Origin: Clostridiales bacterium
Lineage (GTDB): Bacteria > Bacillota > Clostridia > Oscillospirales > Oscillospiraceae
Direction of reading: 5' to 3'
Assembly (NCBI GenBank): GCA_022774865.1
Contig: JALFLH010000031.1
Coordinates: 26,225-90,224 of the forward strand
DNA length: 64,000 nucleotides
Position 1 is the first letter of the stretch, and each line of letters starts with the position of its first letter. The notes below the pieces were generated by a model. That model had not been told where the DNA came from and searched no databases. It saw only the letters and a program-made list of their open reading frames with translations. The translations under genes and the position numbers were made by a program. Shown here piece by piece: positions 10,811 to 24,584 of the stretch.

Positions 10811-10996
10811 ATGAAAGCAACAGGAATCGTCCGCCGGGTCGACGACCTTGGCAGAATTGTGATCCCCAAAGAAATTCGCAGGACACTGCGCATCCGGGAA
10901 GGCGACCCGTTGTTAACATCATTGACACGGTGGGAAATTTTCAGCTTCGCAATGCTGGATCTGTCAAAAAGGAACCGCTGGGATGGTACATACTGA
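10811..10996 (+). pseudogene. spoVT: spoVT 5' fragment: 33 authentic SpoVT codons (10811-10909) plus a 28-codon tail encoded by the element
   Basis: MKATGIVRRVDDLGRIVIPKEIRRTLRIREGDP is near-identical to the AbrB-type N-terminus of SpoVT. After GDP the sequence (LLTSLTRWEIFSF...) loses all similarity. RBS AAGGAGAG at 10797-10804. Confidence 0.9.
10880..10927 (+). repeat. attL: 9-bp core GGCGACCCG (10901-10909) plus element-side inverted-repeat arm TTGTTAACATCATTGACA (10910-10927)
   Basis: The core is repeated exactly at 35648-35656. The arm is the reverse complement (16/18) of the arm at 35629-35647. Confidence 0.85.
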
Positions 10997-11124
10997 CGAA
11001 AAATGAAGTTTAACGGTATGTATTCGGGAAGGTAAAAATTGGGCATCTGCTATTCAAAGCAGATGCCCGGTTTTGTTGTTGGGGAACTTTTTGTTTAGAA
11101 TGTCGAAGAAATATTCCCTACAAA

Positions 11125-12033
11125 TCAAAATGTGCGCCAGCACTTGGTACGCATGAACTCCACGATCTCGCCGTTGTCCCGGTCCTCGTAATAGGCCACC
11201 AACAGCCGCTTGAACTCCGGTACATGGCTCTCGGGAATGACGATCAGGCCTTGCCCTTTGGAGATCATGTAGTGGTTAGCGAAAATCACCGATGCCCGCT
11301 TGTTGCCATCGTTGAAAATCTGAGTTTTCATGCAATACAAGCACAGCCGGATAGCGGTGTCCACCGGGTCAGTGCCGTCCGAAAGAATGGCATCGATGTT
11401 CTCTTTTACGCTGGTTTCGATGGGCAGGGGCGGAACATAGCTGGTGCCGCCGATGGCAACCGGCACACCCCGGATCCGGCCGCCGTCGGTATAGAAGCCC
11501 TCGTTGACCAGCTTGGCGATGTGGCAGAGGATGTAATAATCCGTAGGATAGCTCAGCACATCCTTGTCCAGAATGAACTCCCAGGCGTGTTTCAAATTCA
11601 GAATTTTCTGCACGTCGGTAGCGGTCATGCCGGATACAATACCGTTTTCGATGATGGTTTCCGTCTGGGGATAGGTGGTGGCCACACCCTCCAGAACAGC
11701 CTGATCATAGATGTTGGCTTTCATATTCGCCCGGGCGAAATCCAGATTCAGCATGACCCGGGGGGAGAGTTCCGTCTCCTCGTAACCCAGCGCAGCCAGT
11801 TCTCTTTCTACACGGCGGATGTGCTTGCGCAGCTCCCGGGATTCTCTGGCATTGCGGAGCAGAAGCTGGTACAGCTCGTCGGAATAGGCATCCACATAGG
11901 TAGAGGTCAGGCGGCTGCCCACCCGCTTGCGGACATAGAGATATTTCTGACCCTCCCGGTCCTTGATCTCCGGGGAGCCATCATAGGGAATCAGATTCAA
12001 CCGCGCCTGAAAGTCTGCCTTGACACAACCCAA
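11125..12033 (-). CDS. Fic-domain protein with a degenerate active-site motif, possibly 5'-truncated
   Basis: Fic core helix region with QIFNDGNKRAS (11290-11322) in place of HxFx(D/E)GNGR. The only in-frame start upstream of the conserved N-region is a TTG at 12033 with no RBS, and it overlaps the MFS ORF. Confidence 0.6.
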   Translation of the reverse strand: MGCVKADFQARLNLIPYDGSPEIKDREGQKYLYVRKRVGSRLTSTYVDAYSDELYQLLLRNARESRELRKHIRRVERELAALGYEETELSPRVMLNLDFARANMKANIYDQAVLEGVATTYPQTETIIENGIVSGMTATDVQKILNLKHAWEFILDKDVLSYPTDYYILCHIAKLVNEGFYTDGGRIRGVPVAIGGTSYVPPLPIETSVKENIDAILSDGTDPVDTAIRLCLYCMKTQIFNDGNKRASVIFANHYMISKGQGLIVIPESHVPEFKRLLVAYYEDRDNGEIVEFMRTKCWRTF

Positions 12034-13228
12034 GAGCGACCGTCTGGGTCATGCTGTTAATGGAGGCGCTAAAACCATCTGCGCGGATTCCGTCCTTTTC
12101 TTCCACATGATCCAGAACTTCAGCCAAATAGGAAGCCATCACATAGGTGGGAAGGCTTCCGGTGGATCGGATCAACAAACCGATAAGTACCGGAATCATC
12201 CGGTTTCCCGCGAAGAGTACAACACAGCTTCCAATAGCAGCAAGGGTGAATCCTACAATGGTTACTTTTTTCTTGCCGAATTTTCGAACCAGAGGCCAGA
12301 GCAGGGCAATGCCATAGCCCATGGGAGCCTGCCCGATCACATTGACCAGAATCTGCTTGGAAGCACCGGATTCCACAGAATTACCCAGAACCCAGTTGCA
12401 GTAGTAGATCATGGAACTGTGACTCATGGAATTGCACACATGCAGGATCATCGTAAAGGCTATGACCAGCAACCAGTACTTGTTGCGAAAGCATGCCCGA
12501 ATCTGGGCTGCGAAAGAGATCTGTTCCTGGCGGCCACTCAGTTCTTCGGTAACCCGTTCTTTGGTGAAATAGTATTCGATCAGAGTGGCAGGAATGGCAA
12601 CAACTGAGAGGCATCCCATCACGGTCAGCCAATTGCCCCGGGCGGCTTCACCCACGCCGATGAACCGAACCAGCAGGGGCATGACAACGGTGGTCAAAGC
12701 ACCGGGGAGCATGGAAATTGCCATAGAAGACAGCATAGCCAGACTGTCCCGTTGCTTGGTGTCCCGGGTGGACAGGGGGACCATCATGGCATGGCTAAGG
12801 GAATAGGTGGAGAATGCAAGAGAGAAAAACAGATTATAACTGATCACAACCCAGGCAATCTGGATACCATAGGATGCTCTGGGGACCGCATATAGCCCAA
12901 TGCCGCAGACGGTTAGTAAAACACCGGAGCAAAAAATCCATGGCCGGGCTTTGCCCTGGGCTGTTCTTGTTTTGTCGATCATACGGCCGATCCAAAGGCC
13001 TACCAGACTGCTGATGATTTTGGAGATCAAGGGCATCCATGTCAGAATGATACCAGTAATGCCCAAAACATCTGTATAGAACTGAGTCAGATAGGTTCCG
13101 GCAAGGCCATTGTAGACCATATACGCAAGGCACGGGCCAACAAAATATCCCAGAATACGCTCTGTCTTTGTGACATCTTCGGACTGGATCAGTGATTGCA
13201 GCGTTTTTCCTGAAAAGAAAGGTTTCAT
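11981..13228 (-). pseudogene. MFS / glycoside-pentoside-hexuronide-type symporter, apparently 3'-truncated
   Basis: Multi-TM GPH-like sequence (GRMIDKTRTAQGKARPWIF motif). At 415 aa it ends soon after ...INSMTQTVALGL, where a final TM helix would be expected. The tail overlaps the Fic ORF. Confidence 0.6.
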
Positions 13229-13370
13229 GGGTGATCCCCTTTCTGCAATGATGAATAGAACAAATTTGGCAACATGTGTTGAAAAACTGTTCTGCCCATA
13301 TTATAATTAGAGAAAAGGCGAAAAACAACCAACAAATCTTTTTTGAGTGTTGCCAAAAGGGGAGAAATAC

Positions 13371-13925
13371 ATGGATATCCGCAGCCAACGAACCAGACAG
13401 AATATATGTGATTGTTTCATCCATTTGCTGAATGAAAAAACTGTAGCGAAAATCACGGTAACAGAGATTTGTGAAATGGCACATATCAACCGTGCCACCT
13501 TTTACAAGCACTTTCTTGATGTGCCTGACCTGTTGGAAAACCTGACGCAGCAGGTGCTTGCCGAACTGCAGCAATTTCTGGAACAGCATCCGCAGAGACA
13601 ATTTGAGGAAATGATATTGGACATCCTGTGCTACATGAAGCAAAACGGTCAACGGTATCTGGCACTGGGTTCTGAAAAAGCCGATCCCAACCTGGCTGCC
13701 AAAACTTTCGCCATGTGTTATCAAAGTGTATTTCCTGTTTTGGAAAAGCAGCTGCCCCGGCAGAATCCAGAGCAAAAGAAGCTTCTGTATTACTATTTAT
13801 CTCAGGGCTGCGGCGGAGTACTCTCCCACTGGCTCAGCAGTGGTATGAAACAGGAACCGCAGGAAATTGCGAACTTTATTATGCGTGCCAGCATCCATAC
13901 CGTCCGTGGATTTCAGGAAGAATAA
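13371..13925 (+). CDS. TetR/AcrR-family transcriptional regulator
   Basis: N-terminal HTH (ITVTEICEMAHINRATFYKHF). Divergent from the MFS gene. Start at ATG 13371 with an AAAGGGGAG RBS. Confidence 0.85.
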   Translation: MDIRSQRTRQNICDCFIHLLNEKTVAKITVTEICEMAHINRATFYKHFLDVPDLLENLTQQVLAELQQFLEQHPQRQFEEMILDILCYMKQNGQRYLALGSEKADPNLAAKTFAMCYQSVFPVLEKQLPRQNPEQKKLLYYYLSQGCGGVLSHWLSSGMKQEPQEIANFIMRASIHTVRGFQEE

Positions 13926-13995
13926 GAAAGACCGCCGAAAGCGTGTGCGCCAGAGTGTTAAACAGAATAACATTCGGTTGACACCGTCAAGCGGC

Positions 13996-14046
13996 AAAAA
14001 AGCAGCAGCCACATGGAATTGTTCCGTGTGGCCGCTGCTTTTTGCT
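13996..14046 (+). terminator. rho-independent terminator after the TetR gene
   Basis: Stem GCAGCAGCCACA / TGTGGCCGCTGC (one mismatch) followed by TTTTTGCTTTT. Confidence 0.6.
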
Positions 14047-14113
14047 TTTAGGTCTGGGCTTTTTCAGTTTTCGCTGGCTTGTTTGTTGTAACAAACGCAA
14101 GGAGGAAAACACA

Positions 14114-14449
14114 ATGACAATCGAAAAAGCAAACAAGGACTTCAACCAGCTCATTGAGAAGAACGGCTTCACTAACACCGGCGCCATGACGCCTACCGGC
14201 TGCGAGGTATACAGCCGCGAATGGAACTGCAAAGTGCAGGTCGCTTGGTACGGTGAGAGCACCGATACACTCGTGATCAAAATCTGGATCAGCTACGGCA
14301 TCCCAATGGTGTGGGTAATCCGAAACGGGCGGATCGAAGATCGCATCCGGGACTACAGCAGCCCGAAGCGGGCTATGAACGCCATCGCAGAAATCGTGAG
14401 ATATGCCGGATTTGAGATGCAAGCTGCAAAAGAGTTACATCGAGAGTAA
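14114..14449 (+). CDS. hypothetical small protein (111 aa)
   Basis: ATG 14114 preceded by AAGGAGGAAAA. Followed by the hairpin TTAGCCTAAT..ATTAGGCTAA (14471-14505) and a T-run. No family recognised. Confidence 0.5.
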   Translation: MTIEKANKDFNQLIEKNGFTNTGAMTPTGCEVYSREWNCKVQVAWYGESTDTLVIKIWISYGIPMVWVIRNGRIEDRIRDYSSPKRAMNAIAEIVRYAGFEMQAAKELHRE

Positions 14450-14519
14450 ACTCGGCTCAATATTAAATTGTTAGCCTAATTTGTCTACCAGACAGATTAG
14501 GCTAATTGCTTTTTGTAAA

Positions 14520-15255
14520 AAAGGCAACCACCGACGCCGGTGGACATAAAGAGTTCCACTTATGGATAGAAAAAGAAAACCTCCGATGATAGAGTAGTGT
14601 CAGGTTCGCCAACCGACAACAGACAAAATCAAAGGAGGTTATCCAAATGGATAAAGATAGTTTAGCACAAAGTAAGTGGAACTGCAAATACCATATTGTG
14701 TTTGCGTCGAAATACCGACGCCAGATAGGCTATAAGCAAATCTCAGCAGACATAGGGCAGATCATCCGCGCCCTGTGCGCAAGAAACGGGATAGAAATTC
14801 TCGAGGCAGCAGCAATGCCGGATCACATACACCTGTATGTGAAGATACCGCCAAAGTATAGCGTGTCAGAGGTAATGGGATATCTGAAAGGAAAGAGCAG
14901 TCTGATGATCTTCGACCGGCATGCGAATCTGAGGTACAAGTACGGAAACCGGCATTTCTGGTGCCGCGGCTACTATGTGGACACGGTAGGGCGTAATGAG
15001 AAGGCAATACAGGAATATGTACGGAATCAGTTGCAAGAGGATGTAGCCGCGGACCAGATCCGTCTGAAAGAATTTACCGACCCGTTTACAGGTGAGCCAG
15101 TAAGCAAGGGCAAATAAAGAGCCGCCCCCCTAGAAGGGGGCAGCCCGTAATAGTGCTGCGATTGGCGAACTTTTTTCATGCGCCTTGAGGCGCGGTTGTC
15201 CTACGCCCTTATAGGGCTTGTGCAAGCCACCGGCTACGCTGGTGGTCTTGACCTA
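14520..15255 (+). mobile_element. IS200/IS605-family insertion sequence (tnpA only); boundaries approximate
   Basis: Y1 transposase flanked by short subterminal hairpins: CCACCG..CGGTGG at about 14528-14545, and CCCCC..GGGGG, GCGCC..GGCGC, CCACC..GGTGG at 15125-15245. Confidence 0.6.
14647..15117 (+). CDS. tnpA: IS200/IS605 family Y1 (HUH) transposase TnpA
   Basis: HUH motif PDHIHLYV, catalytic Tyr region FWCRGYYVDTVG, 156 aa, RBS AAAGGAGG. Confidence 0.92.
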   Translation: MDKDSLAQSKWNCKYHIVFASKYRRQIGYKQISADIGQIIRALCARNGIEILEAAAMPDHIHLYVKIPPKYSVSEVMGYLKGKSSLMIFDRHANLRYKYGNRHFWCRGYYVDTVGRNEKAIQEYVRNQLQEDVAADQIRLKEFTDPFTGEPVSKGK

Positions 15256-15265
15256 TGCAGGCGGA

Positions 15266-16090
15266 TCAGTCGTTGTGTTCCTTCCGGTATTCGGCAACAA
15301 CTTCCATGAAGTCTTTGACGCGCTGCGGGTCGATGTGATTTTCAAAAACGCCGTCCACCTTGAACGTTGTCCCAACAAGCGCACCGTCAGAAATGTCGAG
15401 CTTTTGCTTGATGTTGTCACGGCGGCAGCCGGTGGCAGCAAAAACTGGAACACCCCGGCCTTTGATCGCCTCACGCACATCTTCGATCAGCGTGCTGTTC
15501 GCCTCGATCCCGGCATGGGCGCCGGTCATGCAGAAGGCGTCCGGCTTGCAGTCAAAAATGATGGCCTTAGCCAGTTCCGGATATTTTACGGGTACAAGGT
15601 TGTCGTCCGATTCGTTGTTGAGAAAATAAAGAAGCCGGCAGTTGTCCAGACCGAGCGCCTTTTTGCGGCGGAGGATCTTGGAGGTATCGATATCCGAGAT
15701 GCCCTCCACGCCAACGTAAGCGCCGGTAAAAGTACCGCGGATAAAGCTCGCGTCAACCGCGGCGGCAAGATCAAGCGCTGCCATGGGGTCGCACTCCAGA
15801 TCGATGCCGTAAGGCACAGTGATTTCGCTCATCAATTCGCCAATGACGCGAGCCATGCCGCACGGCTGAACCGGGTCAACATCGCTCTGATACGGCAGAC
15901 TGAATTCGTTGGAAAAAAGAATGCCGTCAACGCCGCCATCCTGCAGCGCGTGCAGATCGCGGCGGGCATCTTCCACGGTTTTTTTCATGGAATCGCCCTT
16001 TTTGTATAATGGATCGCCGGGGAATGCATTGAGATGCAGCAGCGCAATAACGGGTTTTTCGTGACCAAACAGCTCTTTGCACCAGCTCAT
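15266..16090 (-). CDS. BtpA/SgcQ-family TIM-barrel protein
   Basis: KPVIALLHLNAFPGDPLY N-terminus and overall BtpA/SgcQ family pattern, 274 aa. Last gene of the minus-strand operon. Confidence 0.75.
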   Translation of the reverse strand: MSWCKELFGHEKPVIALLHLNAFPGDPLYKKGDSMKKTVEDARRDLHALQDGGVDGILFSNEFSLPYQSDVDPVQPCGMARVIGELMSEITVPYGIDLECDPMAALDLAAAVDASFIRGTFTGAYVGVEGISDIDTSKILRRKKALGLDNCRLLYFLNNESDDNLVPVKYPELAKAIIFDCKPDAFCMTGAHAGIEANSTLIEDVREAIKGRGVPVFAATGCRRDNIKQKLDISDGALVGTTFKVDGVFENHIDPQRVKDFMEVVAEYRKEHND

Positions 16091-16229
16091 TTTCTATTCC
16101 TCCCTGTATAAATGCAAATAAGATAAACAATTTACGATCTCATTGTACCACTCTACGTACTATATGTCATTCGCCGAAGAGCTTAGCTGTTTGACGTGCG
16201 CTCCTCTTGTTGACCGATGCTTCCTATGT

Positions 16230-17102
16230 TCAATGCTCCGCATCGACCCAGCGGCAGCGGCGCAGCCATTCCGCCGTTTTCCTTGTCGCGGCATCGGGAT
16301 CATCAAAATACATTTGGTTGTTGATCTCCATGGTGATCGTACCGGTATAATTGTGCCGTACCAGCGTTTCGAGATATCCCTCTACATCGTTGGTTCCTTC
16401 ACCGGGAACCATGTGCCCCTCCGGGCAGCCGTCCGCCAGATGAAGGTGGTTGATCGTTCCAAACGTTTCAAAATAGGATTCAACCGTTTCGTTGCCTGCG
16501 GCGGCGGCAACGCAGTCAATGCATGCCGTGAGATTGGGTGAGCCGACGGCGTCGATTAGCCGTTTAAGCGTCGTTTTATCGTAGCACAGATTGGATTCAT
16601 AACGCTGCAGCTGCTCCATCACCATTTTAACGCCCAGTTTTTCCGCATAGGCATTAATCTCACGCAGCGATTCAATCGACCGGTCATATGCCGCCGCCTC
16701 GTCCTCGTCAAACAGGCAATAGCCCATCTGTGGGAAGAAATAGATCGCACCGAGTGCCTTGGTGTCCTCCAGATACCCTTTTACGATTTCCAGGCTGTTT
16801 CGCCGTACATATGGGTTGGAAGACGCGACATTGATGGGGTACAGGCAAATCTGCTCTGCGGTGAAAACCGAGACCTTCAGGCCGTTGTCGTCCAGCATGC
16901 GGCGGATCTCGCCGATGCGCCGGTCACGCTGCCCGGGGGCAGTGTCAAAATAGCTGTAGTGCGGTGCGCCGCCCCAGAGATCAACGTAGCGGAAGCCCGC
17001 TTTTGCGATGGATGCGAGCGCATATTCGAGACTATAGAGCTGATAGTTGACGCTCATTACGCCAAACTGCGAAAATTTCAGTTTATCCATCGTTCCCCTC
17101 AT
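16230..17102 (-). CDS. sugar-phosphate isomerase/epimerase (xylose-isomerase-like TIM barrel), FrlC-like
   Basis: VDLWGGAPH and HLHLADG..GHMVPGEG match the layout of fructoselysine 3-epimerase FrlC. ATGA overlap with the upstream gene. Confidence 0.8.
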   Translation of the reverse strand: MRGTMDKLKFSQFGVMSVNYQLYSLEYALASIAKAGFRYVDLWGGAPHYSYFDTAPGQRDRRIGEIRRMLDDNGLKVSVFTAEQICLYPINVASSNPYVRRNSLEIVKGYLEDTKALGAIYFFPQMGYCLFDEDEAAAYDRSIESLREINAYAEKLGVKMVMEQLQRYESNLCYDKTTLKRLIDAVGSPNLTACIDCVAAAAGNETVESYFETFGTINHLHLADGCPEGHMVPGEGTNDVEGYLETLVRHNYTGTITMEINNQMYFDDPDAATRKTAEWLRRCRWVDAEH

Positions 17103-17935
17103 TTCCAGAGCTGCTGCAGGACCTGCAGCGTTTTTTCATAGCTCTCATCCGGTGCATCCGCGTATTCCTCCATGGTGACTTCCAGCGTTATGGGGCCGGT
17201 GAAATCGTATTTCTCCATGGCTGCAAGGTGCGCGGCGATGTCCTGTGTGCCGTCGCCGAGGATGAACTGTTCGTCTTCGTCGTCGCTGTCAGAAAGCTGC
17301 ACAGCCCGTATCCGGGAGCCAAAGCGGCGGAAATAATCCTCCAGCGTTTCGCCGCCGGCTACTACGGCGCAGGTGTTCACGCTCAGCGCCAGACGCTCAT
17401 CTCCAACTCGCTCAAGTATCTCCGCCACCGCATTGCTGTTGGGCGTCATACCGGAAATGCAGGAGGAAACGTTTTGCAGCAGGATCGTCACGCCTTTTTC
17501 TCCGGCGTAGCCGCAAAGCTCACGCAGACACTCGCAGGCGTAGCTCAGCATTTCCTCATGCGGCTTGTCCATGGCGTTTTTGCCCGGATAGACCACCACC
17601 ATGCCGCAGCCGAGATATGGGGCACAGTCGATATAAAATTTCAGCTGCTCCATGCTCTTTTCACGCAGGAACGAGTCCGCGGAAGCAATATTGATCGGGA
17701 GAAAGTTCTGCTCCGGTTCGATGACCGGCACCGTGATGCCAGCCTCGCGGATCTGCCGGGCAAAAGCTGCGGGGTCGAAGCGCTCCTGCTCATAGATCGT
17801 GAAGTGCGGATGGCAGCCGCTCAGCTCAACTCTCGTCAGGCCGAGCCTTCGCACGGCGCGGAGAAAGTAGGAAAGGGAATACCGTCGGTAGGTCATATTG
17901 CTGATACCGACGCGCTCTTGAATCGTGCCTTTCAT
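17099..17935 (-). CDS. second sugar-phosphate isomerase/epimerase (xylose-isomerase-like TIM barrel)
   Basis: AP_endonuc_2-type pattern (VELSGCHPH, VQLSDSDDEDEQFILGDG), 278 aa. Confidence 0.8.
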   Translation of the reverse strand: MKGTIQERVGISNMTYRRYSLSYFLRAVRRLGLTRVELSGCHPHFTIYEQERFDPAAFARQIREAGITVPVIEPEQNFLPINIASADSFLREKSMEQLKFYIDCAPYLGCGMVVVYPGKNAMDKPHEEMLSYACECLRELCGYAGEKGVTILLQNVSSCISGMTPNSNAVAEILERVGDERLALSVNTCAVVAGGETLEDYFRRFGSRIRAVQLSDSDDEDEQFILGDGTQDIAAHLAAMEKYDFTGPITLEVTMEEYADAPDESYEKTLQVLQQLWK

Positions 17936-17952
17936 TTTTTCTTCCTTTCTTT

Positions 17953-18381
17953 TTATTCGCCCAGGATTACAAGAGAAATCGTGCGTTCCTGAGGACCGTC
18001 AAACTCTGCAAGGTATATTTCCTGCGCGCGGCCACAGACAATTTCTCCGTCTAAGATGGGGAGAACGCAGTGATTGCCAGAGAGCATGGATTTCAGATGT
18101 CCTGTCGGGTTTCCTGCCATGGCTCCGTATTCTCGAAGGAACCGCGCATGATAGTATTCACCATCCTCGGGGAAAAGCAGACCGAGCTGGCGGAGAATAT
18201 CGTCTTCCAGACATTCAAGTTTTTCGTTAATCATTATGCCGGTGGTCGTATGCTGCGTAATGACATACGCAACACCGTTGTCGACCCCCGACAGTCTCAC
18301 CTCCCGGCGGACATCCGCGCTTATGGGCAGGAGCTGGTTATATGCTTTGGTCATGTATTCCAGTGCAACATGCTTTACCAT
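17953..18381 (-). CDS. YjbQ/UPF0047 family protein (secondary thiamine-phosphate synthase-like)
   Basis: HTTTGIMINE and GHLKSMLSG motifs typical of YjbQ, 142 aa. Confidence 0.8.
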   Translation of the reverse strand: MVKHVALEYMTKAYNQLLPISADVRREVRLSGVDNGVAYVITQHTTTGIMINEKLECLEDDILRQLGLLFPEDGEYYHARFLREYGAMAGNPTGHLKSMLSGNHCVLPILDGEIVCGRAQEIYLAEFDGPQERTISLVILGE

Positions 18382-19232
18382 TACAGTGCCTCCCCAATAA
18401 ACTCCAACGCATTCCCGCCGAAAATCAGCTCTCGTGTGCTCTCACGCATATCCATATTCCGCAGTGCCTTTATCATACGCCGCTGTTCCAGCCGCGGGTC
18501 ATCCGAGCCGAACATAATCTGATGTCGCAGGCTGCGGTCAATCCACCCGGGGCCGATATCCACTTCCAGACACTGATGATAAAACTGGCGCGGATCGTCG
18601 AAATACAGCATGGCTGTGTCCGTATACACATTCGGATATTTGAGCATAAGCATGCACACCTCACGCACCCACGGCCAACCAAAGTGTGCAAGGCACATGC
18701 GGAGCTTTGGATACCGGAATGCCACCTCTTCAAATTCCAACGGATGTGAATGCTTTGTGAGTGTTCCCGGCTCCATGGATACGCCGGCATGGAATATGAT
18801 GGGCTTATCGTACCGCAGGCAGATCTCATAGAGCGGCGTGAGCAGCTCATCCGATGGGGAAAAATGCTGCTTGGACGGATGAAGCTTCAACCCTTTCAGG
18901 CCAAGCTGCGCAAAGGCGTACTCCAACTCCTCTGCCGCTGCGGCGGAATGCGGATCCACGCTGGCAAAGCCGACGAATTTCCCGGGACGCAGCCGCACAA
19001 GGTCTGCAATCTGGCAGTTTGTGACAAGTGCGCCACCGCGGCTCTCCGGCAACGCAAGCGGAAGAAGAAACAGCTTATCTATTCCGGATTCCGCCATATC
19101 CGCATCCCATTGCCGAAGACCAAAGGCTTCGGTTTTATAAAGTCCCATCTCCTGCGCGTTACGCCGGTACTTTTCTTCTCCGAGATTCAGCTCCTCTATG
19201 AATGCCGGATGGACGTGGGCGTCAATCAGCAA
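18381..19232 (-). CDS. amidohydrolase-2 family metal-dependent hydrolase
   Basis: LIDAHVHP metal-binding motif near the N-terminus. Start placed at TTG 19232, 10 nt after GGAAAGGAGG. The ORF-track start at 19328 would overlap the upstream kinase by 107 nt. Confidence 0.75.
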   Translation of the reverse strand: MLIDAHVHPAFIEELNLGEEKYRRNAQEMGLYKTEAFGLRQWDADMAESGIDKLFLLPLALPESRGGALVTNCQIADLVRLRPGKFVGFASVDPHSAAAAEELEYAFAQLGLKGLKLHPSKQHFSPSDELLTPLYEICLRYDKPIIFHAGVSMEPGTLTKHSHPLEFEEVAFRYPKLRMCLAHFGWPWVREVCMLMLKYPNVYTDTAMLYFDDPRQFYHQCLEVDIGPGWIDRSLRHQIMFGSDDPRLEQRRMIKALRNMDMRESTRELIFGGNALEFIGEAL

Positions 19233-20031
19233 CTTGCATCGGCCTCCTTTCCCAGGGATCAAAGATGGACACGACCTGAGCGGAGACGGCAGCGCCCTGT
19301 TCCAAGCATTTTTCGACCGACCAGCCACGCAGAACTCCGTTCATGAATCCCGCGATAAACGAATCGCCGGCGCCGACCGTGTTTTCCACTGTGGTCGGGA
19401 ACACACCAAAGCTGTGAAACTGTTCGCCGTCCCATGCGAGGCTGCCTTTGTCACCGAATGTGGCGACCGCAGTTTTCGCACCGCGCCGCACCTTGTCTTT
19501 CAGATACTCCTCCGTTTCCGCCGTGTGCTCCACGAAGGAAAAAAAGGCGTAGTCCACATAGGGGATCGTCTGCTCCACCAGCGGATCGGTCAGCTCGTCG
19601 GCATAATCAAAGCTGATTTTTGTTCCGGATTCGTGAATCTGCGGAAGATGCTCTGTGGCATTGCCCCATATTGCCGTATGCACGAGATCGTGATCACAGA
19701 CGAAACGGATATCCTCCGCGTCGAACTCCACGTTTTCCATGACGCCCTCGACATAGTCGCCGTAGGTGCGCTCCCGGTCGATGAGATCCATATATGAAAC
19801 GGCTGTCAGGCCGGGCGCAACTTTGAGATGGCTGGTATCAATATCCTCCATTTTAAGCTCCCGGACGAGCTGCCGGCCGAAAACGTCATCGCCCGTGGTA
19901 CTAATCACCGAGGTGGGTATGCCGAGCCGCTGCATATGCACGGCGAAGTCGACGACGTTGCCTGTGCAGTAATACCGGCCCAGGCGCGGGTAAATATCCA
20001 CGCAGTTATCGCCTAATGCTGCAACCTTCAT
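19222..20031 (-). CDS. PfkB-family kinase, fructoselysine 6-kinase (FrlD)-like
   Basis: MKVAALGDNCVDIYP, YGDYVEGVM, AIWG and TVGAGDSFIAGF line up with E. coli FrlD motifs. Start at ATG 20031 with a GAGAGGAGAG RBS. Confidence 0.8.
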   Translation of the reverse strand: MKVAALGDNCVDIYPRLGRYYCTGNVVDFAVHMQRLGIPTSVISTTGDDVFGRQLVRELKMEDIDTSHLKVAPGLTAVSYMDLIDRERTYGDYVEGVMENVEFDAEDIRFVCDHDLVHTAIWGNATEHLPQIHESGTKISFDYADELTDPLVEQTIPYVDYAFFSFVEHTAETEEYLKDKVRRGAKTAVATFGDKGSLAWDGEQFHSFGVFPTTVENTVGAGDSFIAGFMNGVLRGWSVEKCLEQGAAVSAQVVSIFDPWERRPMQVAD

Positions 20032-20044
20032 CTTTTCTCTCCTC

Positions 20045-20911
20045 TCAAACTCCATTGGCTTCTATAGCCGCTCCAAATCCGAACGCGCCCTCGGTCAGAC
20101 AGTTGTCCGCGGCAAAATCGGCGGCATAATCAAAGCATTCCTGCAGCGCGTCTTCACCGAGGCGCACACCGTGCTGCCAGCCTTTCCGGAGCATGGAAAC
20201 CATAAAGGCCGTAAAAAAGCTGTCTCCCGCGCCCATCGTGTCCACCGGCGTTATGGTCTTGACGCAGCCGTCGTAAAATCTGCTTCCATCATAGAGAAGC
20301 TGTCCGTGCATGCCCATGGTGGCCAGGACATAGGAAACGCCCTTTGCCGATACGCGGCTCAGCAGCTTCTCGATCTCGCCGCGGGTCATGTCCTCACAGG
20401 AAAAGAGCGCAAAATCCAACACCGGGCAGAGCGCGTTCAGATATTTCTCCGTGCGGAACTCGTCCTCCTCAGAAAAATCGAACGCCACCAGCGGCCCCAA
20501 TCCGAGCAGCTTTTGCAGCTCGTCCTCGGTCTCCGCATAGCAGCTGGAGTGGATAAGATCAAAGCCCGCCAGATACTTCAGCTCCTCCTCACCCAACGGC
20601 AGTGAGCCGTGGAGGTTTTCCCGCTCATCCTCGCCGCAGAAAACGCGCTCGCCATCGATGAGCTCCACATCGCAGTGCTCCGTCACGCTGCCAGGCTCCG
20701 CACGACAGTAGTCCGTGGAAACACCCAGCTTGTCCAGTGCGCCGCGAATCAGATCTGCTTCGGCGTCCTCGCCGAACGCGCCGAGATAAGCGCTTTCCGC
20801 GCCTGCGCGTTTGGCATATACTGCGAAATTGATGCAGTTTCCGCCGGGGAACATCCGGTTCTTGTTGACGTATCTGTCAACCACATTATCTCCGTAGCCA
20901 ACGACTCTCAT
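20045..20911 (-). CDS. second PfkB-family carbohydrate kinase
   Basis: MRVVGYGDNVVDRY..GGNCINFAV and DTMGAGDSFFTAF. Start at the internal ATG 20911; the long N-terminal extension in the track is Arg/Lys-rich junk. Confidence 0.8.
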   Translation of the reverse strand: MRVVGYGDNVVDRYVNKNRMFPGGNCINFAVYAKRAGAESAYLGAFGEDAEADLIRGALDKLGVSTDYCRAEPGSVTEHCDVELIDGERVFCGEDERENLHGSLPLGEEELKYLAGFDLIHSSCYAETEDELQKLLGLGPLVAFDFSEEDEFRTEKYLNALCPVLDFALFSCEDMTRGEIEKLLSRVSAKGVSYVLATMGMHGQLLYDGSRFYDGCVKTITPVDTMGAGDSFFTAFMVSMLRKGWQHGVRLGEDALQECFDYAADFAADNCLTEGAFGFGAAIEANGV

Positions 20912-20982
20912 AGTTTTCCTATTCCTTTCATTTTTGCGGCGCGGGACACCGATGCGCGCACCGGCGTTCCGTGGCCATTCGG

Positions 20983-22515
20983 TCAGAAACGGTTTTCCTC
21001 GTATACGGTTTTTCCGCCCACGACGGTTTTGATAACTTTTACGCTGCGGTATTCCTCCGGATTGCAGGAGAAAAGATCGCGGTCGAGCACGATCAGATCG
21101 GCCCACTTTCCCTCCGTCAGCGTCCCCGCCTGTTCGAGCGAGCGCTGCGCGGCATACCCATTGCGGCTCCAGCAGTACAGCACCTCGCCGGGCGTCAAAG
21201 CGTTCTGCTTCTGATAGCCTCCCTCTGGTTTTCTGTCCGGGAAGCGCCGGTTGCAGGCAAACTCCAGCGACGTTCCGAGATCGGGTACGTCCAGCGGGAG
21301 ATCGGTGCCGAAGCTGAGCAGCACGCCGTCACGGATCATGTCTTTATACGGCCAGATCGTCTTCTGCCGCTTCTCGTCGAAGCGCGTCAGCCCATAGTAG
21401 CCGTCGTACTCCGGGTAGCAGTTCATGATCTGCACATAGCACACGGCCGCCGTTTTCTGTGCCGCCATGCGGCGGCGGTCCGCCGGATCGATCAGCTCAA
21501 CATCTGTGATCACGTGGTTTCCCTTGCAGGTGTCATAAATATCCAGCACGTGGCGCACAGCGGCGTCGCCTTCGGCATGCATATAGCAGCGCAGACCGCG
21601 CTTATCTGCCGCACGGACTACCGCCTCGAGCGCGGAATAATCCACCTCCGCGTTCTCTTGTCCTTCCGGCCAGGGAGGCAGAAGATCGGCCTCATAGCTT
21701 TCGGCATCGCCGTCCACCATGATGTTGAAGCCCATGAAGCGAAGCATATCGCCGGTGAACCGGCGGCGGCATGCCTCGGCAAAGTCCATATCCGCCGGCG
21801 CTTTTACCGGCTGGGAAACGAGAAAGGAGCGGTGCTTCAGCTCGCCCTGCTGCTCCATTACAGCCAATTCCTCCAGAAATCCGCTGTAATCGTCAAAGCC
21901 GATCTCCTTGATGGCGGTCACGCCCTTGGATGCGAGCAGGTTCTGAAACTCCTCATACCAGCGGCGCACCTCGGCCTTATCCTGCAAAAACTCTTCCAAA
22001 AGATGGCAGCATACCTCGGCATAGCATTCCGTGCCGTCAAACCCATAACGCCCGCGCGCCGCATCGTTCATCCAGCAGCGGCTGCGCTCGTCGTTGAACA
22101 CGCAGACCGGCCGATCGGGAAACGCCGCAGTGAGCGCGCCGGGCGCTAAGTCTTCCTCGCTCCAGTCTTCAAAGTCCGCGCCGTGGCCGCATACAGTGCC
22201 TTCCGTATGCTCCGCCGCCGCCCGGACGAGCGAGAGCATTTGCTGCGCATTTTCTGCCCCGGAAGCGTCAAAGCCCTTATGCTGCCAGATATAGCCCGTG
22301 AAAAACACATGGTTGTCCACCAAACCACAGCTCACCGTCCGGCTGCCGACATCCGTGACGAGCGTGTTTTCCCCCAGCAGCTCGCCGTACTCGTCACCGT
22401 CGCCCACCCCGACGATCTTATCCCCGCGCACGGCGACGAAGCCGTCGCGGACATCCTGCGGCGTAATGCCAGTGAAAATGGACCGGGAACGAAGGATCCA
22501 ATCGGCTCTTTCCAT
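20983..22515 (-). CDS. amidohydrolase-3 (YtcJ-like) family protein
   Basis: 510 aa. N-terminal beta-sandwich (GFVAVRGDKIVGVG), GLVDNHVFF metal-site region, C-terminal GTDLPLD and ADLIVLDRD motifs. Confidence 0.7.
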   Translation of the reverse strand: MERADWILRSRSIFTGITPQDVRDGFVAVRGDKIVGVGDGDEYGELLGENTLVTDVGSRTVSCGLVDNHVFFTGYIWQHKGFDASGAENAQQMLSLVRAAAEHTEGTVCGHGADFEDWSEEDLAPGALTAAFPDRPVCVFNDERSRCWMNDAARGRYGFDGTECYAEVCCHLLEEFLQDKAEVRRWYEEFQNLLASKGVTAIKEIGFDDYSGFLEELAVMEQQGELKHRSFLVSQPVKAPADMDFAEACRRRFTGDMLRFMGFNIMVDGDAESYEADLLPPWPEGQENAEVDYSALEAVVRAADKRGLRCYMHAEGDAAVRHVLDIYDTCKGNHVITDVELIDPADRRRMAAQKTAAVCYVQIMNCYPEYDGYYGLTRFDEKRQKTIWPYKDMIRDGVLLSFGTDLPLDVPDLGTSLEFACNRRFPDRKPEGGYQKQNALTPGEVLYCWSRNGYAAQRSLEQAGTLTEGKWADLIVLDRDLFSCNPEEYRSVKVIKTVVGGKTVYEENRF

Positions 22516-22537
22516 TGGGTATGCCCTCCTGTAAAAA

Positions 22538-23551
22538 TCAGTATTCCATCACACGGTAGTAGCGGCGGATGTCGAGCGAATGGCCGCGCTTATCCTCCAG
22601 CTGAATGCTGAGCCGGTCGAGAATGGCCGTCATAACGATGGGCGAGAGCAGATGGCGGTATTTCTCATCAATGCCGGGCAGCTCATAATCTTTCGTATCG
22701 AACACCGTGAGATGCTCCGTGATGCGCTGGGCAAAGCTCTGCACGCGCTCACACATGGCGCGACTCGCGTCCTCGCCCATGATCAGCATGACGCTCGTGT
22801 CCTTATCCACGATCTCCAGCGTGCCGTGGAAGAATTCGGCGGCGCGCACCGTTTTGGTGCGGATCCACTGCATTTCCTCCATGACGCACATGCCGTAGGA
22901 ATACGTCTCGCCCCACAGACTGCCGGAGCCGATGAGCAGATGATATGTCTCATCCTTGTACTGCTCGGCGAAGGCCTCGCAGAAGGCGTCGCTGTGCTCT
23001 TTTACCGAAACGAGCGCTTCGGGCATTCTGGCAAGATTCGCGCAGAAGTCCTCGTAATCGTCGAAATCGCCCGCGGCATGCATCAGCGCAAATGTCAGCA
23101 TATAAAGGAGCAGATAGTCTGCGTCCGACGCGGAAAAGTCGTCCATCTTATTGATGATGGCATAATCGGCGTTTTTGGCGTAGGGCACCTGGTCGTTGCC
23201 GGAAATGCAGATCGTCACAGCGCCCTTGCTGCGGCAGTACTCCGCCGCCGCCACCGTCTCCTTTGTAGTGCCGGAGGTAGAGGTGAAAATGCAGACCGAT
23301 TCCGCGCCGAGCTGGTTGTGTCCCGTCGCCATCAACTCCGCGGCGATCACGCAGTAGGTCTGAATGCGTGACTGTGTGGTGAGATAATACTCAAATGGGA
23401 TAAACATGGCGTAAGAGCCGCCGGAGCCGATGAGAAATACGTTCTTAAAGCCCTTCTTGCTCACCTCGTCCACGATCTCATCCACACGGGACTTAAGCGC
23501 GACGGTGTTTTTGCCGATTCGCAGGTAACTTTCTTCGTTGAAATTTTTCAT
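22538..23551 (-). CDS. SIS-domain fructoselysine-6-phosphate deglycase (FrlB)-like
   Basis: Two SIS domains (FLIGSGGSY, TSTSGTTKE). C-terminus RRYYRVMEY resembles FrlB's RRYYGGLVEY. Start at ATG 23551 with AAGGAGGG. Confidence 0.8.
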   Translation of the reverse strand: MKNFNEESYLRIGKNTVALKSRVDEIVDEVSKKGFKNVFLIGSGGSYAMFIPFEYYLTTQSRIQTYCVIAAELMATGHNQLGAESVCIFTSTSGTTKETVAAAEYCRSKGAVTICISGNDQVPYAKNADYAIINKMDDFSASDADYLLLYMLTFALMHAAGDFDDYEDFCANLARMPEALVSVKEHSDAFCEAFAEQYKDETYHLLIGSGSLWGETYSYGMCVMEEMQWIRTKTVRAAEFFHGTLEIVDKDTSVMLIMGEDASRAMCERVQSFAQRITEHLTVFDTKDYELPGIDEKYRHLLSPIVMTAILDRLSIQLEDKRGHSLDIRRYYRVMEY

Positions 23552-24581: not shown

Positions 24582-24584
24582 CGC

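What the first reader, a model, noticed from the sequence alone, without database searches (positions are those of the whole stretch)
10890..10930. att-site architecture: 9-bp core within a near-palindromic attP, predicted GA crossover
- **Arms.** The element ends are inverted repeats. TTGTTAACATCATTGACA (10910-10927) matches the reverse complement of TGTCAATGTTGTTAACGAG (35629-35647) at 16 of 18 positions.
- **Predicted attP.** The excised circle would carry TGTCAATGTTGTTAACGAG-GGCGACCCG-TTGTTAACATCATTGACA.
- **Crossover.** The symmetry centre falls between G and A of the core (10904-10905 and 35651-35652), a non-palindromic GA dinucleotide.
- **Family link.** From memory, GA is also the crossover dinucleotide of the clostridial large serine recombinases TnpX (Tn4451) and TndX (Tn5397). 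The element also carries a tnpV homolog, which fits that family.
Basis: partly seen in the sequence, partly recalled or inferred. Interest (0 to 1): 0.7.

Follow-up and report, generated by a model that had tools for sequence, protein, structure and literature searches.

The report
Serine-recombinase element splitting sporulation gene spoVT
A 24.7-kb mobile element has inserted into the sporulation regulator gene spoVT using a large serine recombinase that cuts at a central GA, and because the recombination site lies inside the recombinase's own gene, each insertion or excision swaps the enzyme's tail, a design found in hundreds of gut Clostridia species.

Summary
GGCGACCCG occurs at 10901-10909 and 35648-35656. 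The flanking inverted arms match 16/18, the only such case among 15,559 9-bp repeat pairs in the window.

The repeats bound a 24,747-bp element that splits spoVT after codon 33. Three metagenome contigs carry the intact gene with exactly the predicted attB.

Related elements (at least 578 species-representative genomes) conserve both arms and show natural attP junctions. For one relative, attP, attL and attR were all recovered.

The predicted GA crossover (10904-5 / 35651-2) has five kinds of comparative support:
- It is the symmetry centre in four reconstructed attP sites.
- Matched attL/attR pairs share only GACCC.
- Same-lineage elements in different hosts diverge from core position 6.
- Secondary-site insertions keep only GA.
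- An inverted insertion has a 3+2+3-nt geometry around TC.

The "9-bp core" is local, not a functional unit. The TnpX/TndX link is analogy, not membership: 31% identity, no DUF4368, and near-exclusive use of one site.

- attP lies inside the recombinase ORF, so integration replaces a conserved ~28-aa tail (pN/pS 0.24) with the SpoVT C-terminal domain.
- A conserved small ORF precedes the recombinase.

No paper describing spoVT as a recombinase target was found.

The parts
10811..10909 (+). 5' fragment of spoVT (codons 1-33, MKATGIVRRVDDLGRIVIPKEIRRTLRIREGDP), ending in the left copy of the core
   Evidence: Translation. Pfam MazE_antitoxin/AbrB-type hit on the called 61-aa product. Joined to 35657-36100 it gives an intact 180-aa SpoVT that is 99-100% identical to proteins P0121-P0124.
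10885..10929 (+). attL: host half-site B (to 10904) plus element half-site P' (from 10905). Outer limits are approximate.
   Evidence: 116 homologous attL junctions were found in metagenomes.
10901..10909 (+). Left copy of the 9-bp direct repeat GGCGACCCG (Gly-Asp-Pro codons). The inferred crossover dinucleotide GA is at 10904-10905.
   Evidence: G4 and A5 are invariant in 73/73 attR junctions. They were fixed by the search pattern in the 116 attL junctions. Crossover mapping.
10910..10929 (+). Right arm (P') of attP: TTGTTAACATCATTGACACG
   Evidence: 16/18 complementary to 35629-35646. The family consensus read outward is ACCCGTcACAGAtAACATTGaCAC, and PL versus PR similarity is 0.75 at zero shift.
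10910..10996 (+). Coding sequence of the recombinase's circle-form C-terminal tail (LLTSLTRWEIFSFAMLDLSKRNRWDGTY, then stop). In the integrated state it is fused to SpoVT(1-33) as a 61-aa ORF (10811-10996).
   Evidence: The homologous tail is on the natural attP-form recombinase P0008. Tail codons 10-24 have pN/pS 0.24 with pS 0.67 across 67 sequences. The 61-aa product is called in 73 collection blocks.
10910..35647 (.). Body of the integrative element (24,747 bp between equivalent core positions). Cargo is mainly sugar/Amadori-type catabolism and transport genes, plus Fic, TetR, an IS200-type Y1 transposase and GNAT. No relaxase was seen.
   Evidence: Gene calls and Pfam hits on near-identical contigs. 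Pfam on window ORFs. Absent from the empty-site contigs L102-L104.
31463..31819 (+). tnpV homolog (118 aa)
   Evidence: Pfam PF14198 TnpV, E=1.2e-31. 35% identical to the TnpV next to a TnpX-like gene. Not present in all family members.
31845..33334 (-). Strain-specific IS insertion (DDE transposase ORF 31799-33265; terminal inverted repeats 31826-31859 / 33320-33353) between tnpV and the small ORF
   Evidence: Absent from sibling contig L001.
33592..33855 (+). Conserved small ORF (87 aa) directly upstream of the recombinase. Candidate accessory or directionality factor, inferred from position and conservation only.
   Evidence: Homologs sit in the same position in at least 38 of 74 loci, with invariant S49, G50, T58, L61 and N65. 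No Pfam, PHROG or PDB match. The AF2 model is unusable at pLDDT 55.
33944..35656 (+). [quoted passage not shown] There is no stop codon before the junction.
   Evidence: PHROG 95 integrase, E=2.7e-88. The closest solved structure is SPbeta SprA.
33944..36100 (+). Integrated-state ORF: a 718-aa recombinase-SpoVT_C fusion that reads in frame across attR
   Evidence: The identical protein is called on 4 contigs with Pfam SpoVT_C. Hundreds of homologous fusion clusters exist. 73/73 attR loci are in frame and open to the normal spoVT stop.
35627..35647 (+). Left arm (P) of attP, inside the recombinase coding sequence: ACTGTCAATGTTGTTAACGAG
   Evidence: Positions -19 to -7 (TGTCAATGTTATC) are 89-100% conserved in 73 distinct attR, including third-codon positions, against 32-75% at other third positions.
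35648..35656 (+). Right copy of the 9-bp direct repeat. The inferred crossover GA is at 35651-35652.
35627..35671 (+). attR: element half-site P plus host half-site B'. Outer limits are approximate.
35657..36100 (+). 3' part of spoVT (codons 34-180 plus stop; SpoVT_C domain)

Best explanation
**What it is**
- Window 10901-35656 holds a 24.7-kb integrative element. A large serine recombinase (LSR, 33944 onward) inserted it into codon 32 (Asp, GAC) of the sporulation regulator gene spoVT.

**How it works**
- The element's attP is a near-palindrome of about 46-50 bp. Its left arm is the 3' end of the LSR coding sequence, and its right arm lies at the opposite end of the element.
- An LSR dimer on attP and another on the spoVT site (attB) synapse.
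- All four strands are cut with a 2-nt stagger at the central, non-palindromic GA, which forms codon positions 1-2 of Asp in both reading frames.
- The half-sites then rotate and are religated. This gives attL (10885-10929) and attR (35627-35671).
- The GA fixes the orientation of insertion. Excision is the exact reverse and restores an intact spoVT.

**Consequence of attP lying inside the LSR ORF**
- The excised (attP) form encodes the LSR with a conserved C-terminal tail of about 28 aa.
- The integrated form encodes the LSR fused in frame to the 147-aa SpoVT C-terminal domain.
- In the integrated form the tail is attached to SpoVT residues 1-33, downstream of the spoVT promoter.

**Shown**
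- The site anatomy, the precise empty site, natural attP/attL/attR sets, horizontal spread to one conserved target, and the position of strand exchange by comparative mapping.

**Inferred**
- The chemistry (from LSR family knowledge), current activity of this particular copy, and what controls excision.
For: **Enzyme**
- It matches PHROG integrase family 95 and SPbeta SprA among solved structures.

**Boundaries**
- Empty-site contigs L102-L104 equal the predicted attB base for base.
- Chance expectation for the repeat-plus-arms arrangement is about 0.001.

**attP is real**
- Contiguous P-core-P' junctions occur in L011-L017 and L116, colinear with the prediction.
- For one relative all three sites were recovered: L011 attP (GGCGACCCA), L199 attL (GGCGACCCA, followed by 8,018 nt that are 99.99% identical to L011), and L227-231 attR (GGCGACCCG). 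L011-L227 homology ends at the core.
- The LSR of that element occurs with both C-termini: 98% identical up to ...GDP, then different.

**Arms**
- The left arm is 89-100% conserved even at synonymous positions across LSRs that are only 54-96% identical to the window's.
- Across the family, the P and P' half-site consensus sequences agree at 0.75.

**Crossover = GA**
1. The symmetry centre lies between G4 and A5 in four reconstructed attP sites: 18-20 of 25 pairs, against 10 or fewer for the other centres tested.
2. attL/attR identity within single genomes is 1-9, 4-8, 1-11 and 4-10, so the intersection is GACCC.
3. The attR cores of L035, L059 and L063 read GTT-GA, although SpoVT needs Gly there. 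Positions 1-3 therefore come from the element.
4. Same-lineage attR pairs in different hosts are identical from -30 to +5 and first differ at position 6 (L061/L065, L065/L079, L096/L101).
5. Insertions into a T2SSE ATPase gene (L044, GGC GA G ACG) and a DUF6506 gene (L031, GGC GA C AGG) keep GA but not the CCC that follows it at the spoVT site.
6. L226 joins the P arm to the reverse complement of the spoVT 5' half as GGG-TC-ACC. That 3+2+3-nt geometry is possible only if both halves end at positions 4-5.
7. G4 and A5 are invariant in 73/73 attR.

**Mobility**
- LSRs that are 93-98% identical sit in hosts whose SpoVT_C is only 42-55% identical.
Against: - No wet-lab junction exists. The exact circle junction of this very element was not found.
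- The attP-type contigs of relatives could be internal junctions of tandem arrays and not free circles. That was not resolved.
- Core position 3 varies in 20% of attR pairs that have identical 24-nt left arms. This is compatible with a wobble polymorphism in the element, but it is also what a crossover left of position 3 would give. That alternative is rejected only by lines 1, 3 and 6 above.
- The mutual-information test of which flank positions 3 and 9 follow fits GA in attR. It is mixed in attL.
- The expected 5-bp inward shift of the zinc-ribbon motif in attB relative to attP was not clearly detected.
- An IS lies between tnpV and the small ORF/LSR pair in this copy and could affect expression.
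Confidence: 0.85

Rival explanations
1. Strand exchange occurs elsewhere in the shared 9 bp, for example at GG (core positions 1-2) or within CCC (positions 6-8), and not at GA.
For: - In the window itself all 9 bp are identical in attL and attR, so this pair alone cannot tell.
- Position 3 is polymorphic among attR with identical left arms (20%), as a host-derived wobble base would be.
- The attL association test is mixed.
Against: - GG is excluded because three attR cores read GTT at positions 1-3.
- GG would also put the cut 3 bp off the symmetry axis and would predict 2 nt, not 8, between the arm and CTCACG in L226.
- CC and CG are excluded because same-lineage attR pairs already differ at positions 6-7.
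- L044 and L031 share only GA with attP.
- Hosts with GAT TCT (L065) still carry insertions.
Confidence: 0.06
2. The element is a developmentally excised 'intervening element' like skin or SPbeta. A directionality factor, perhaps the conserved small ORF, is induced during sporulation. The LSR then excises the element so that spoVT is rebuilt when needed. Otherwise the insertion is stable.
For: - The target is a sporulation gene.
- Both spoVT halves stay intact and in frame in 73/73 attR and 116 attL junctions.
- A conserved small ORF precedes the LSR.
- The closest solved relative, SprA, works this way with SprB (plus established knowledge of SPbeta).
- Empty sites exist in the same populations.
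Against: - Known intervening elements interrupt mother-cell genes, where excision is not inherited. In Bacillus subtilis and Clostridioides difficile, spoVT is forespore-expressed (established knowledge), so excision there would remove the element from the germ line unless it re-integrates.
- The elements are clearly horizontally mobile, and some carry a relaxase. Intact halves may therefore simply reflect recent insertion.
- No sporulation promoter was identified.
Confidence: 0.25
3. The LSR is a TnpX/TndX-type bidirectional transposase. It carries out both insertion and excision alone, with relaxed target choice, as in Tn4451 and Tn5397.
For: - The central dinucleotide GA is the same as in TndX targets (PMC4430133).
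- A tnpV homolog is present.
- Rare secondary sites exist.
- TnpX and TndX need no accessory factor (PMC2475636).
- Some relatives are mobilizable elements with a relaxase, like Tn4451.
Against: - Only 31% identity to a TnpX-like protein.
- No DUF4368 even at E<=10, while the TnpX-like protein has it. That domain marks the multi-targeting clade and is found in 0.73% of site-specific LSRs.
- 73 of the 76 readable junctions among the 80 loci are at one codon of one gene.
- tnpV is not conserved in the family.
- The gene order and the position of the LSR at the element end differ.
Confidence: 0.15
4. This copy is an immobilised remnant. The sites look intact, but the element no longer excises, and spoVT is permanently inactivated in this strain.
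For: - An IS and an 832-bp insertion are specific to this copy.
- The exact circle junction was not found in metagenomes.
- Decayed relatives exist: L018-21 have the core mutated to GT with a 1-bp deletion and an N-truncated LSR.
Against: - The LSR ORF, both arms, the core and both spoVT halves are intact.
- Empty sites with 99% identical flanks occur in the same kind of samples.
- Sibling copies differ only by the two insertions.
Confidence: 0.1

Closest known systems
Large serine recombinase (serine integrase) attP/attB systems, e.g. Listeria A118/LI integrase, phiC31, Bxb1, SPbeta SprA
   Same: - The three-domain LSR architecture.
- An imperfectly palindromic attP of about 50 bp.
- A non-palindromic central dinucleotide shared by attP and attB that sets orientation.
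- Conservative, precise exchange.
- A target inside a conserved coding sequence.
- SprA is the best-matching solved structure. The half-site model is in PMC3783163.
   Different: - attP lies inside the recombinase ORF, so the enzyme's C-terminus changes with the state of the DNA.
- The target is spoVT.
- The elements are cargo islands or mobilizable elements, not phages.
- The 5-bp shift of the zinc-ribbon motif between attP and attB could not be shown.
TnpX (Tn4451/Tn4453) and TndX (Tn5397), clostridial LSR transposases
   Same: - A GA central dinucleotide. For TndX this is documented (PMC4430133). For TnpX it rests on my own recollection of Crellin & Rood 1997.
- A Clostridia host range.
- A tnpV homolog in the window's element.
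- Some relatives carry a relaxase, like the mobilizable Tn4451.
- Tn5397 also prefers a conserved coding motif (the Fic domain).
   Different: - 31% identity to a TnpX-like protein.
- No DUF4368.
- Near-exclusive use of one site.
- The LSR sits at the element's right end and reads outward across the junction.
- tnpV is not a core gene.
- Whether an accessory factor is needed is unknown.
Sporulation-gene intervening elements (skin in sigK with SpoIVCA; SPbeta in spsM with SprA/SprB; skinCd)
   Same: - An LSR-bearing element splits a sporulation gene, and precise excision rebuilds it.
- A small gene next to the LSR could be the directionality factor.
   Different: - Those interrupt mother-cell genes and are excised in the terminally differentiated mother cell. 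spoVT is a forespore gene in model species (established knowledge).
- This family is highly mobile between distant hosts.
- I found no paper naming spoVT as a target.
attP inside the integrase gene of tyrosine-recombinase elements (Myxococcus phage Mx8 intP/intX; fusellovirus SSV1). This is from my own knowledge and was not retrievable in the held library.
   Same: Integration changes or splits the recombinase ORF, so the protein differs between the free and integrated states.
   Different: - A different recombinase superfamily and a different chemistry.
- Here the new C-terminus is a folded host domain (SpoVT_C), and the displaced tail ends up behind the host gene's promoter.
Engineered integrase-RDF C-terminal fusions (phiC31 Int-gp3; SprA-SprB fusion chains in PDB 9dxd)
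   Same: A C-terminal appendage on an LSR can switch it to the attL x attR direction (PMC6511857; fusion chain listed).
   Different: - Those are synthetic constructs.
- There is no evidence that SpoVT_C or the natural tail has any such effect.

Membership tests
Large serine recombinase att-site system | Recombinase with an N-terminal resolvase catalytic domain (nucleophile Ser), a recombinase domain and a zinc-ribbon domain | tested here: met
   Pfam Resolvase (E=5e-16), Recombinase (1.4e-23) and Zn_ribbon_recom (2.5e-12). YTRIS aligns with YERLS of the TnpX-like protein.
Large serine recombinase att-site system | attP is an imperfect palindrome of about 50 bp centred on the crossover | tested here: met
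   16/18 in the window. 18-20 of 25 pairs in four reconstructed attP sites, with a unique centre. Family-wide P/P' consensus agreement is 0.75.
Large serine recombinase att-site system | A 2-bp non-palindromic central dinucleotide, identical in attP and attB, that fixes orientation | tested here: met
   GA is invariant in 73/73 attR, all in one orientation and frame. The one lineage in the opposite orientation has TC on the LSR strand.
Large serine recombinase att-site system | Conservative, precise exchange: the empty site equals attL-left plus attR-right with one core copy | tested here: met
   L102-L104 match the predicted attB and flanks without gaps.
Large serine recombinase att-site system | Zinc-ribbon-domain motif about 5 bp closer to the centre in attB than in attP (PMC3783163) | tested here: inconclusive
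   Position-weight comparison: a shift of 5 is among the best for the B' half (0.39-0.41) but not for the B half.
Large serine recombinase att-site system | Catalytic activity on these sites, and whether excision needs a directionality factor | not testable with these tools
   This needs in vitro or in vivo recombination assays.
TnpX/TndX (Tn4451/Tn5397) multi-targeting LSR clade | GA central dinucleotide | tested here: met
   See the crossover mapping. The TndX GA is in PMC4430133.
TnpX/TndX (Tn4451/Tn5397) multi-targeting LSR clade | DUF4368 domain (63% of the clade, 0.73% of site-specific LSRs, per Durrant et al. preprint) | tested here: not met
   No DUF4368 hit at E<=10. The TnpX-like control has it at E=3e-19.
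TnpX/TndX (Tn4451/Tn5397) multi-targeting LSR clade | Close sequence relationship to TnpX/TndX | tested here: not met
   31% identity over 405 aa to a protein that is 95% identical to the TnpX catalytic domain. The TnpX catalytic domain 2mhc scores 27-31 bits, no better than unrelated LSR N-domains. No phylogeny was made.
TnpX/TndX (Tn4451/Tn5397) multi-targeting LSR clade | Insertion into many different targets | tested here: not met
   73 of the 76 readable junctions among the 80 loci are in spoVT codon 32. Only L031 and L044 are confirmed insertions into other genes, and L033 runs into another site.
TnpX/TndX (Tn4451/Tn5397) multi-targeting LSR clade | tnpV as a companion gene | tested here: inconclusive
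   Present in the window (PF14198; 35% identity). Absent from the 10.6-kb L090 element.
Sporulation-gene intervening elements (skin/SPbeta type) | The element splits a sporulation gene that is rebuilt by precise excision | tested here: met
   Rebuilding is shown as a sequence outcome, not as a developmental event.
Sporulation-gene intervening elements (skin/SPbeta type) | Excision is triggered during sporulation, in the mother cell, by a developmentally expressed factor | not testable with these tools
   No expression or time-course data. The target is a forespore gene in model organisms (established knowledge), which argues against the classical scheme.

The most novel reading that the evidence does not exclude
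**Proposal.** Recombination itself rewires the recombinase.
- In the free (attP) form the LSR carries a conserved amphipathic tail of about 28 aa and acts as an integrase.
- Integration replaces that tail with the SpoVT C-terminal (GAF-like, oligomerising) domain.
- Integration also moves the tail-coding segment behind the forespore-specific spoVT promoter, as a SpoVT(1-33)-tail peptide.

**What this could do.** The swap could be a built-in directionality and timing switch. For example, the fused domain or the promoter-captured tail peptide could favour attL x attR synapsis when the cell tries to express spoVT. The element would then leave, and perhaps later re-enter, a forespore gene without a classical mother-cell scheme.

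**Why it is not excluded.**
- The tail is under purifying selection (pN/pS 0.24).
- The in-frame fusion is universal (73/73).
- The same LSR occurs with both C-termini.
- C-terminal Int-RDF fusions are known to reverse LSR direction.

**What is missing.** Nothing here shows that either C-terminus changes activity.
Probability: 0.15. Interest if true: 0.9.

Novelty: new variant of a known kind. Interest (0 to 1): 0.66.

Why it matters
- **Annotation.** A very large family of LSR elements in gut, rumen and other anaerobic Clostridia, found in at least 578 species-representative genomes, all targets one codon of spoVT. These elements are currently mis-annotated as "stage V sporulation T C-terminal domain-containing protein".
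- **Sporulation.** Each insertion disrupts a key sporulation regulator and does so reversibly. This could affect spore formation, and hence transmission, of gut commensals.
- **Enzymology.** A natural serine recombinase changes its own C-terminus on recombination. That offers a new way to study how directionality is controlled in this enzyme class.
- **Genome engineering.** The family supplies many orthologous LSR, attP and attB sets with a defined GA core and a highly conserved target.
- **Cargo.** The elements move metabolic islands between distant hosts. In the window the cargo is an Amadori/sugar-type catabolic cluster.

Tried and rejected
- **Exact circle junction.** A 29-mer spanning the window element's predicted circle junction gave no match in metagenome contigs.
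- **IMG/VR scan with the LSR.** No relatives were found.
- **Plasmid collection.** Nothing above 32% identity.
- **Literature.**
  - spoVT with serine recombinase, and spoVT with intervening element: nothing relevant.
  - Mx8 intX: not retrievable.
  - The primary TnpX/TndX papers are not held, so the TnpX GA rests on my memory.
- **Mutual-information test.** I tested whether wobble positions 3 and 9 follow the host or the element flank. attR fits the GA model and attL is mixed, probably because hosts and elements are co-structured. I do not rely on it.
- **5-bp zinc-ribbon motif shift.** Inconclusive.
- **More matched attL/attR pairs.** None were found in the 120 metagenome loci, which are too short.
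- **Small upstream ORF.**
  - Pfam, PHROGs and a PDB profile search gave nothing.
  - The AlphaFold model has pLDDT 55, so no fold search was run.
  - The homolog search found only unnamed close relatives.
- **Promoter and terminator scans at both junctions.** Nothing above background.
- **Arm pN/pS.** I did not use the arm codons as evidence, because the search pattern fixed those bases.
- **Prophage reading.** Considered and rejected, because neither the window element nor the small relatives carry phage structural genes.
Full report
**1. The observation**

Both copies of GGCGACCCG are present at 10901-10909 and 35648-35656, and the identity stops exactly at their edges. The sequence just inside the left copy (10910-10927) is complementary at 16 of 18 positions to 35629-35646, just inside the right copy. 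One extra G (35647) sits before the core, so the axis of symmetry falls between G and A of the core (10904|10905, 35651|35652).

A 9-bp repeat by itself is worthless: the window contains 15,559 such pairs. This is the only pair with flanking complementarity above 13/18. About 0.001 are expected, and 20 shuffles never exceeded 14.

**2. What the repeats bound**

The left flank encodes the first 33 codons of an AbrB-type regulator. The right flank continues with the rest. Joined through one core copy, they give an intact 180-aa SpoVT.

Proteins 99-100% identical to that reconstruction exist. Their contigs (L102-L104) align without gaps at about 99% across the predicted empty site, with attB exactly as predicted.

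The element is therefore 24,747 bp, inserted at the Gly-Asp-Pro codons 31-33 of spoVT.

Its content is as follows:
- sugar and Amadori-type catabolic and transport genes;
- Fic, TetR and GNAT genes, and an IS200-type Y1 transposase;
- a tnpV homolog;
- a strain-specific IS;
- an 87-aa ORF;
- at the right end, a large serine recombinase (LSR).

There are no phage structural genes and no relaxase.

**3.

The LSR ORF (33944 onward) has no stop codon before the junction. It reads in frame through attR into the spoVT 3' part, giving a 718-aa Resolvase-Recombinase-Zn_ribbon-SpoVT_C protein.

In the excised form the same ORF would continue into the element's left end for 28 codons: LLTSLTRWEIFSFAMLDLSKRNRWDGTY. 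So attP lies inside the recombinase gene.

**4. Related sequences**

- The LSR has hundreds of homologous clusters at 68-98% identity, nearly all of them 711-721-aa SpoVT_C fusions. One NCBI names "stage V sporulation T C-terminal domain-containing protein" in Intestinimonas butyriciproducens.
The hosts span Oscillospiraceae, Ruminococcus, Acutalibacteraceae, Lachnospiraceae, Peptococcaceae and others.
- Of the 80 loci kept, 76 gave a readable junction and 73 of those show the same in-frame junction ...VNV[IV]xxGDP|LEI[YF]T.
- LSRs that are 93-98% identical sit in hosts whose SpoVT C-termini are only 42-55% identical. Near-identical hosts carry LSRs only 57% identical. The elements therefore move horizontally and land in the same place each time.

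**5. Natural attP junctions**

- Protein P0008 (596 aa, seen in 177 collection blocks) ends ...GDPSQITLALWQRFSFAMLDLAKRQGWN, which is homologous to the predicted tail.
- Its contigs (L011-L017) carry TGTCAATGTTATCAACAGT-GGCGACCCA-TCACAGATAACATTGGCA, colinear without gaps with the window's predicted attP.
- The same element is also seen integrated:
  - L199 has spoVT-5'/attL followed by 8,018 nt that are 99.99% identical to L011 downstream of attP.
  - L227-L231 have the same cargo and LSR running through attR into spoVT and host genes.
  - Its LSR is 98% identical in both states up to GDP, then differs.
- I could not decide whether the attP contigs are circles or internal junctions of tandem arrays.
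- The exact circle junction of the window's own element was not found.

**6. Conservation of the arms**

In 73 distinct attR, left-arm positions -19 to -7 (TGTCAATGTTATC) are 89-100% conserved, including five third-codon positions. Third positions elsewhere are 32-75% conserved. That is a DNA-level constraint, as expected of a binding site.

Family-wide, the P and P' half-sites read outward as CC(G)TCAC(T/A)GATAACATTGACA and agree at 0.75. All four half-sites share an inner CC[GC]TC. This explains why attP and attB look alike around the centre.

**7. Where the strands exchange**

The window pair cannot resolve this within its 9 bp. Comparative data can.

- (a) The symmetry centre is G4|A5 in four reconstructed attP sites.
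- (b) Four genomes with both junctions share positions 1-9, 4-8, 1-11 and 4-10. The intersection is GACCC.
- (c) Three attR read GTT at positions 1-3, where the host gene must encode Gly. Those bases therefore come from the element.
- (d) attR pairs of one element lineage in different hosts are identical through position 5 and first differ at position 6.
- (e) Two insertions into other genes share only GA, plus a downstream GGAAAT, with the normal site. One is a T2SSE ATPase gene and the other a DUF6506 gene.
- (f) In L226, and in proteins P0074, P0081 and P0094, the P arm is joined to the reverse complement of the spoVT 5' half as ...AAC GGG TC ACC CTC.... Three bases come from each half around a dinucleotide that reads TC on the LSR strand. 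Only a cut at positions 4-5 gives this geometry. It also shows that orientation follows the dinucleotide.
- (g) GA is invariant in all 73 attR junctions. In the attL set it was fixed by the search pattern.

Weak points:
- Position 3 varies in 20% of pairs that have identical left arms.
- An association test was mixed for attL.
- The 5-bp zinc-ribbon motif shift expected from the LI integrase model (PMC3783163) was not clearly seen.

I put the GA assignment at about 0.85-0.9.

**8. The tail and the small ORF**

Beyond the arm, tail codons 10-24 were not part of any search pattern. They have pS 0.67 and pN 0.16, so pN/pS is 0.24 over 67 sequences. Across divergent lineages they keep a motif of the form [FY]xx[AS][MVIL]xx[LI][AS]xR. 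The tail is a translated peptide under selection.

An ORF of about 65-95 aa with invariant S49, G50, T58, L61 and N65 precedes the LSR in at least 38 of 74 loci. It has no known relatives, and its structure model is not usable. Its role as an accessory or directionality factor is inference only.

**9. Comparison with the known**

The system works like a serine integrase att system and meets that family's testable features.

The TnpX/TndX link is a resemblance:
- TndX targets always contain a central GA (PMC4430133).
- TnpX uses a 2-bp target (PMC3158075). That the dinucleotide is GA is my recollection.
- Both enzymes are bidirectional without helpers (PMC2475636).

Membership is not supported:
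- The window LSR is 31% identical to a TnpX-like protein.
- It lacks DUF4368, which marks the multi-targeting clade.
- It is nearly single-site.
- tnpV is not conserved in the family.

The closest solved structure is SPbeta SprA, which also rebuilds a sporulation gene. The known intervening elements, however, sit in mother-cell genes, whereas spoVT is a forespore gene in model species (established knowledge).

An attP inside the recombinase ORF is known to me only for tyrosine recombinases (Mx8, SSV1), and that is from memory.

Engineered C-terminal Int-RDF fusions do reverse LSR direction (PMC6511857). This keeps open the idea that the natural C-terminal swap matters.

**10. Verdict**

- The GA prediction is supported in silico.
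- The "9-bp core" and the family assignment need correction.
- The att site itself is a new member of a known kind.
- Three things make it a new variant worth experimental follow-up:
  - the attP-in-ORF design with a selected tail;
  - the universal in-frame SpoVT_C fusion;
  - the size of this undescribed spoVT-targeting family.

Noticed in passing
window 31845-33334 (transposase ORF 31799-33265, minus strand; inverted repeats 31826-31859 / 33320-33353): An IS with a DUF772/DDE_Tnp_1_6 transposase lies between tnpV and the small ORF/LSR pair. It is absent from the otherwise 99%-identical sibling contig L001, so it is a recent, strain-specific insertion.
   Followed up: partly
window 29910-30741: An 832-bp segment is absent from sibling L001. 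It overlaps an ORF (29760-30146, minus strand) that matches only the C-terminal D2-small domain of ClpB, so this is a gene fragment.
   Followed up: partly
window ~15200-29700 (cargo of the element): The cargo looks like a catabolic island for Amadori or fructosamine-type sugars. It contains a SIS-domain protein, two PfkB kinases, two GntR/UTRA regulators, two AP_endonuc_2 (sugar isomerase/epimerase-type) proteins, BtpA, YjbQ, amidohydrolases, HAD, an FGGY kinase, and MFS and Na+/H+ antiporter-family transporters. The substrate was not investigated.
   Followed up: no
L226:419-2335 (also proteins P0074, P0081, P0094): In one lineage the element sits in spoVT in the opposite orientation. The LSR reads into the antisense of the spoVT 5' end, and the central dinucleotide is TC on the LSR strand. 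This is either a lineage whose attP core flipped or a wrong-orientation or inversion product. The other junction was not available.
   Followed up: partly
L018-L021 (junction near L018:11490-11520): An attP-type junction next to an LSR 97% identical to the window's. The core is mutated from GGCGACCCG to GGTGT-CCG (GA changed to GT, plus a 1-bp deletion), and the LSR lacks its N-terminus (506 aa). It looks like a decayed, locked junction, possibly inside a tandem array of two different spoVT elements.
   Followed up: partly
L044 (junction at 1808), L031 (junction at 4005), L033 (junction at 7746): These are rare insertions outside spoVT. L044 is in a type II/IV secretion ATPase gene (T2SSE profile positions 224-370 remain). 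L031 is in a DUF6506 gene. L033 lies upstream of an HhH-GPD glycosylase gene. The first two share GA-n-nnG-nnG-GAAAT with the spoVT half-site.
   Followed up: partly
L090:1069-11693 and L071:360-11714: Small family members of 10.6 and 11.4 kb carry quite different modules. L090 has a MobA/VirD2 relaxase, an AAA_25 protein, an AbiEii/AbiEi toxin-antitoxin pair, DUF6076 and a SWIM protein. L071 has a DEAD helicase, DprA, a PDDEXK_2 transposase, a partial second LSR and Cas4/Cas7/Csd1 fragments. Only the small ORF, the LSR and the tail are shared with the window.
   Followed up: partly
window 33592-33855: An 87-aa ORF of a conserved, unannotated family always sits immediately upstream of this LSR family. 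It has no match in Pfam, PHROGs or PDB, and the structure model had low confidence.
   Followed up: partly
window 11041-11068: A strong 11-bp-stem hairpin followed by a T-run lies on the minus strand, between the tail ORF stop (10996) and the convergent Fic gene (11125-12033). It might terminate transcription from both directions, including read-through from the spoVT promoter.
   Followed up: no
window 12020/12021, compared with L005:11211-11592: Sibling contig L005 has about 380 bp between the Fic and MFS genes that the window lacks. This is another indel polymorphism within the element.
   Followed up: no
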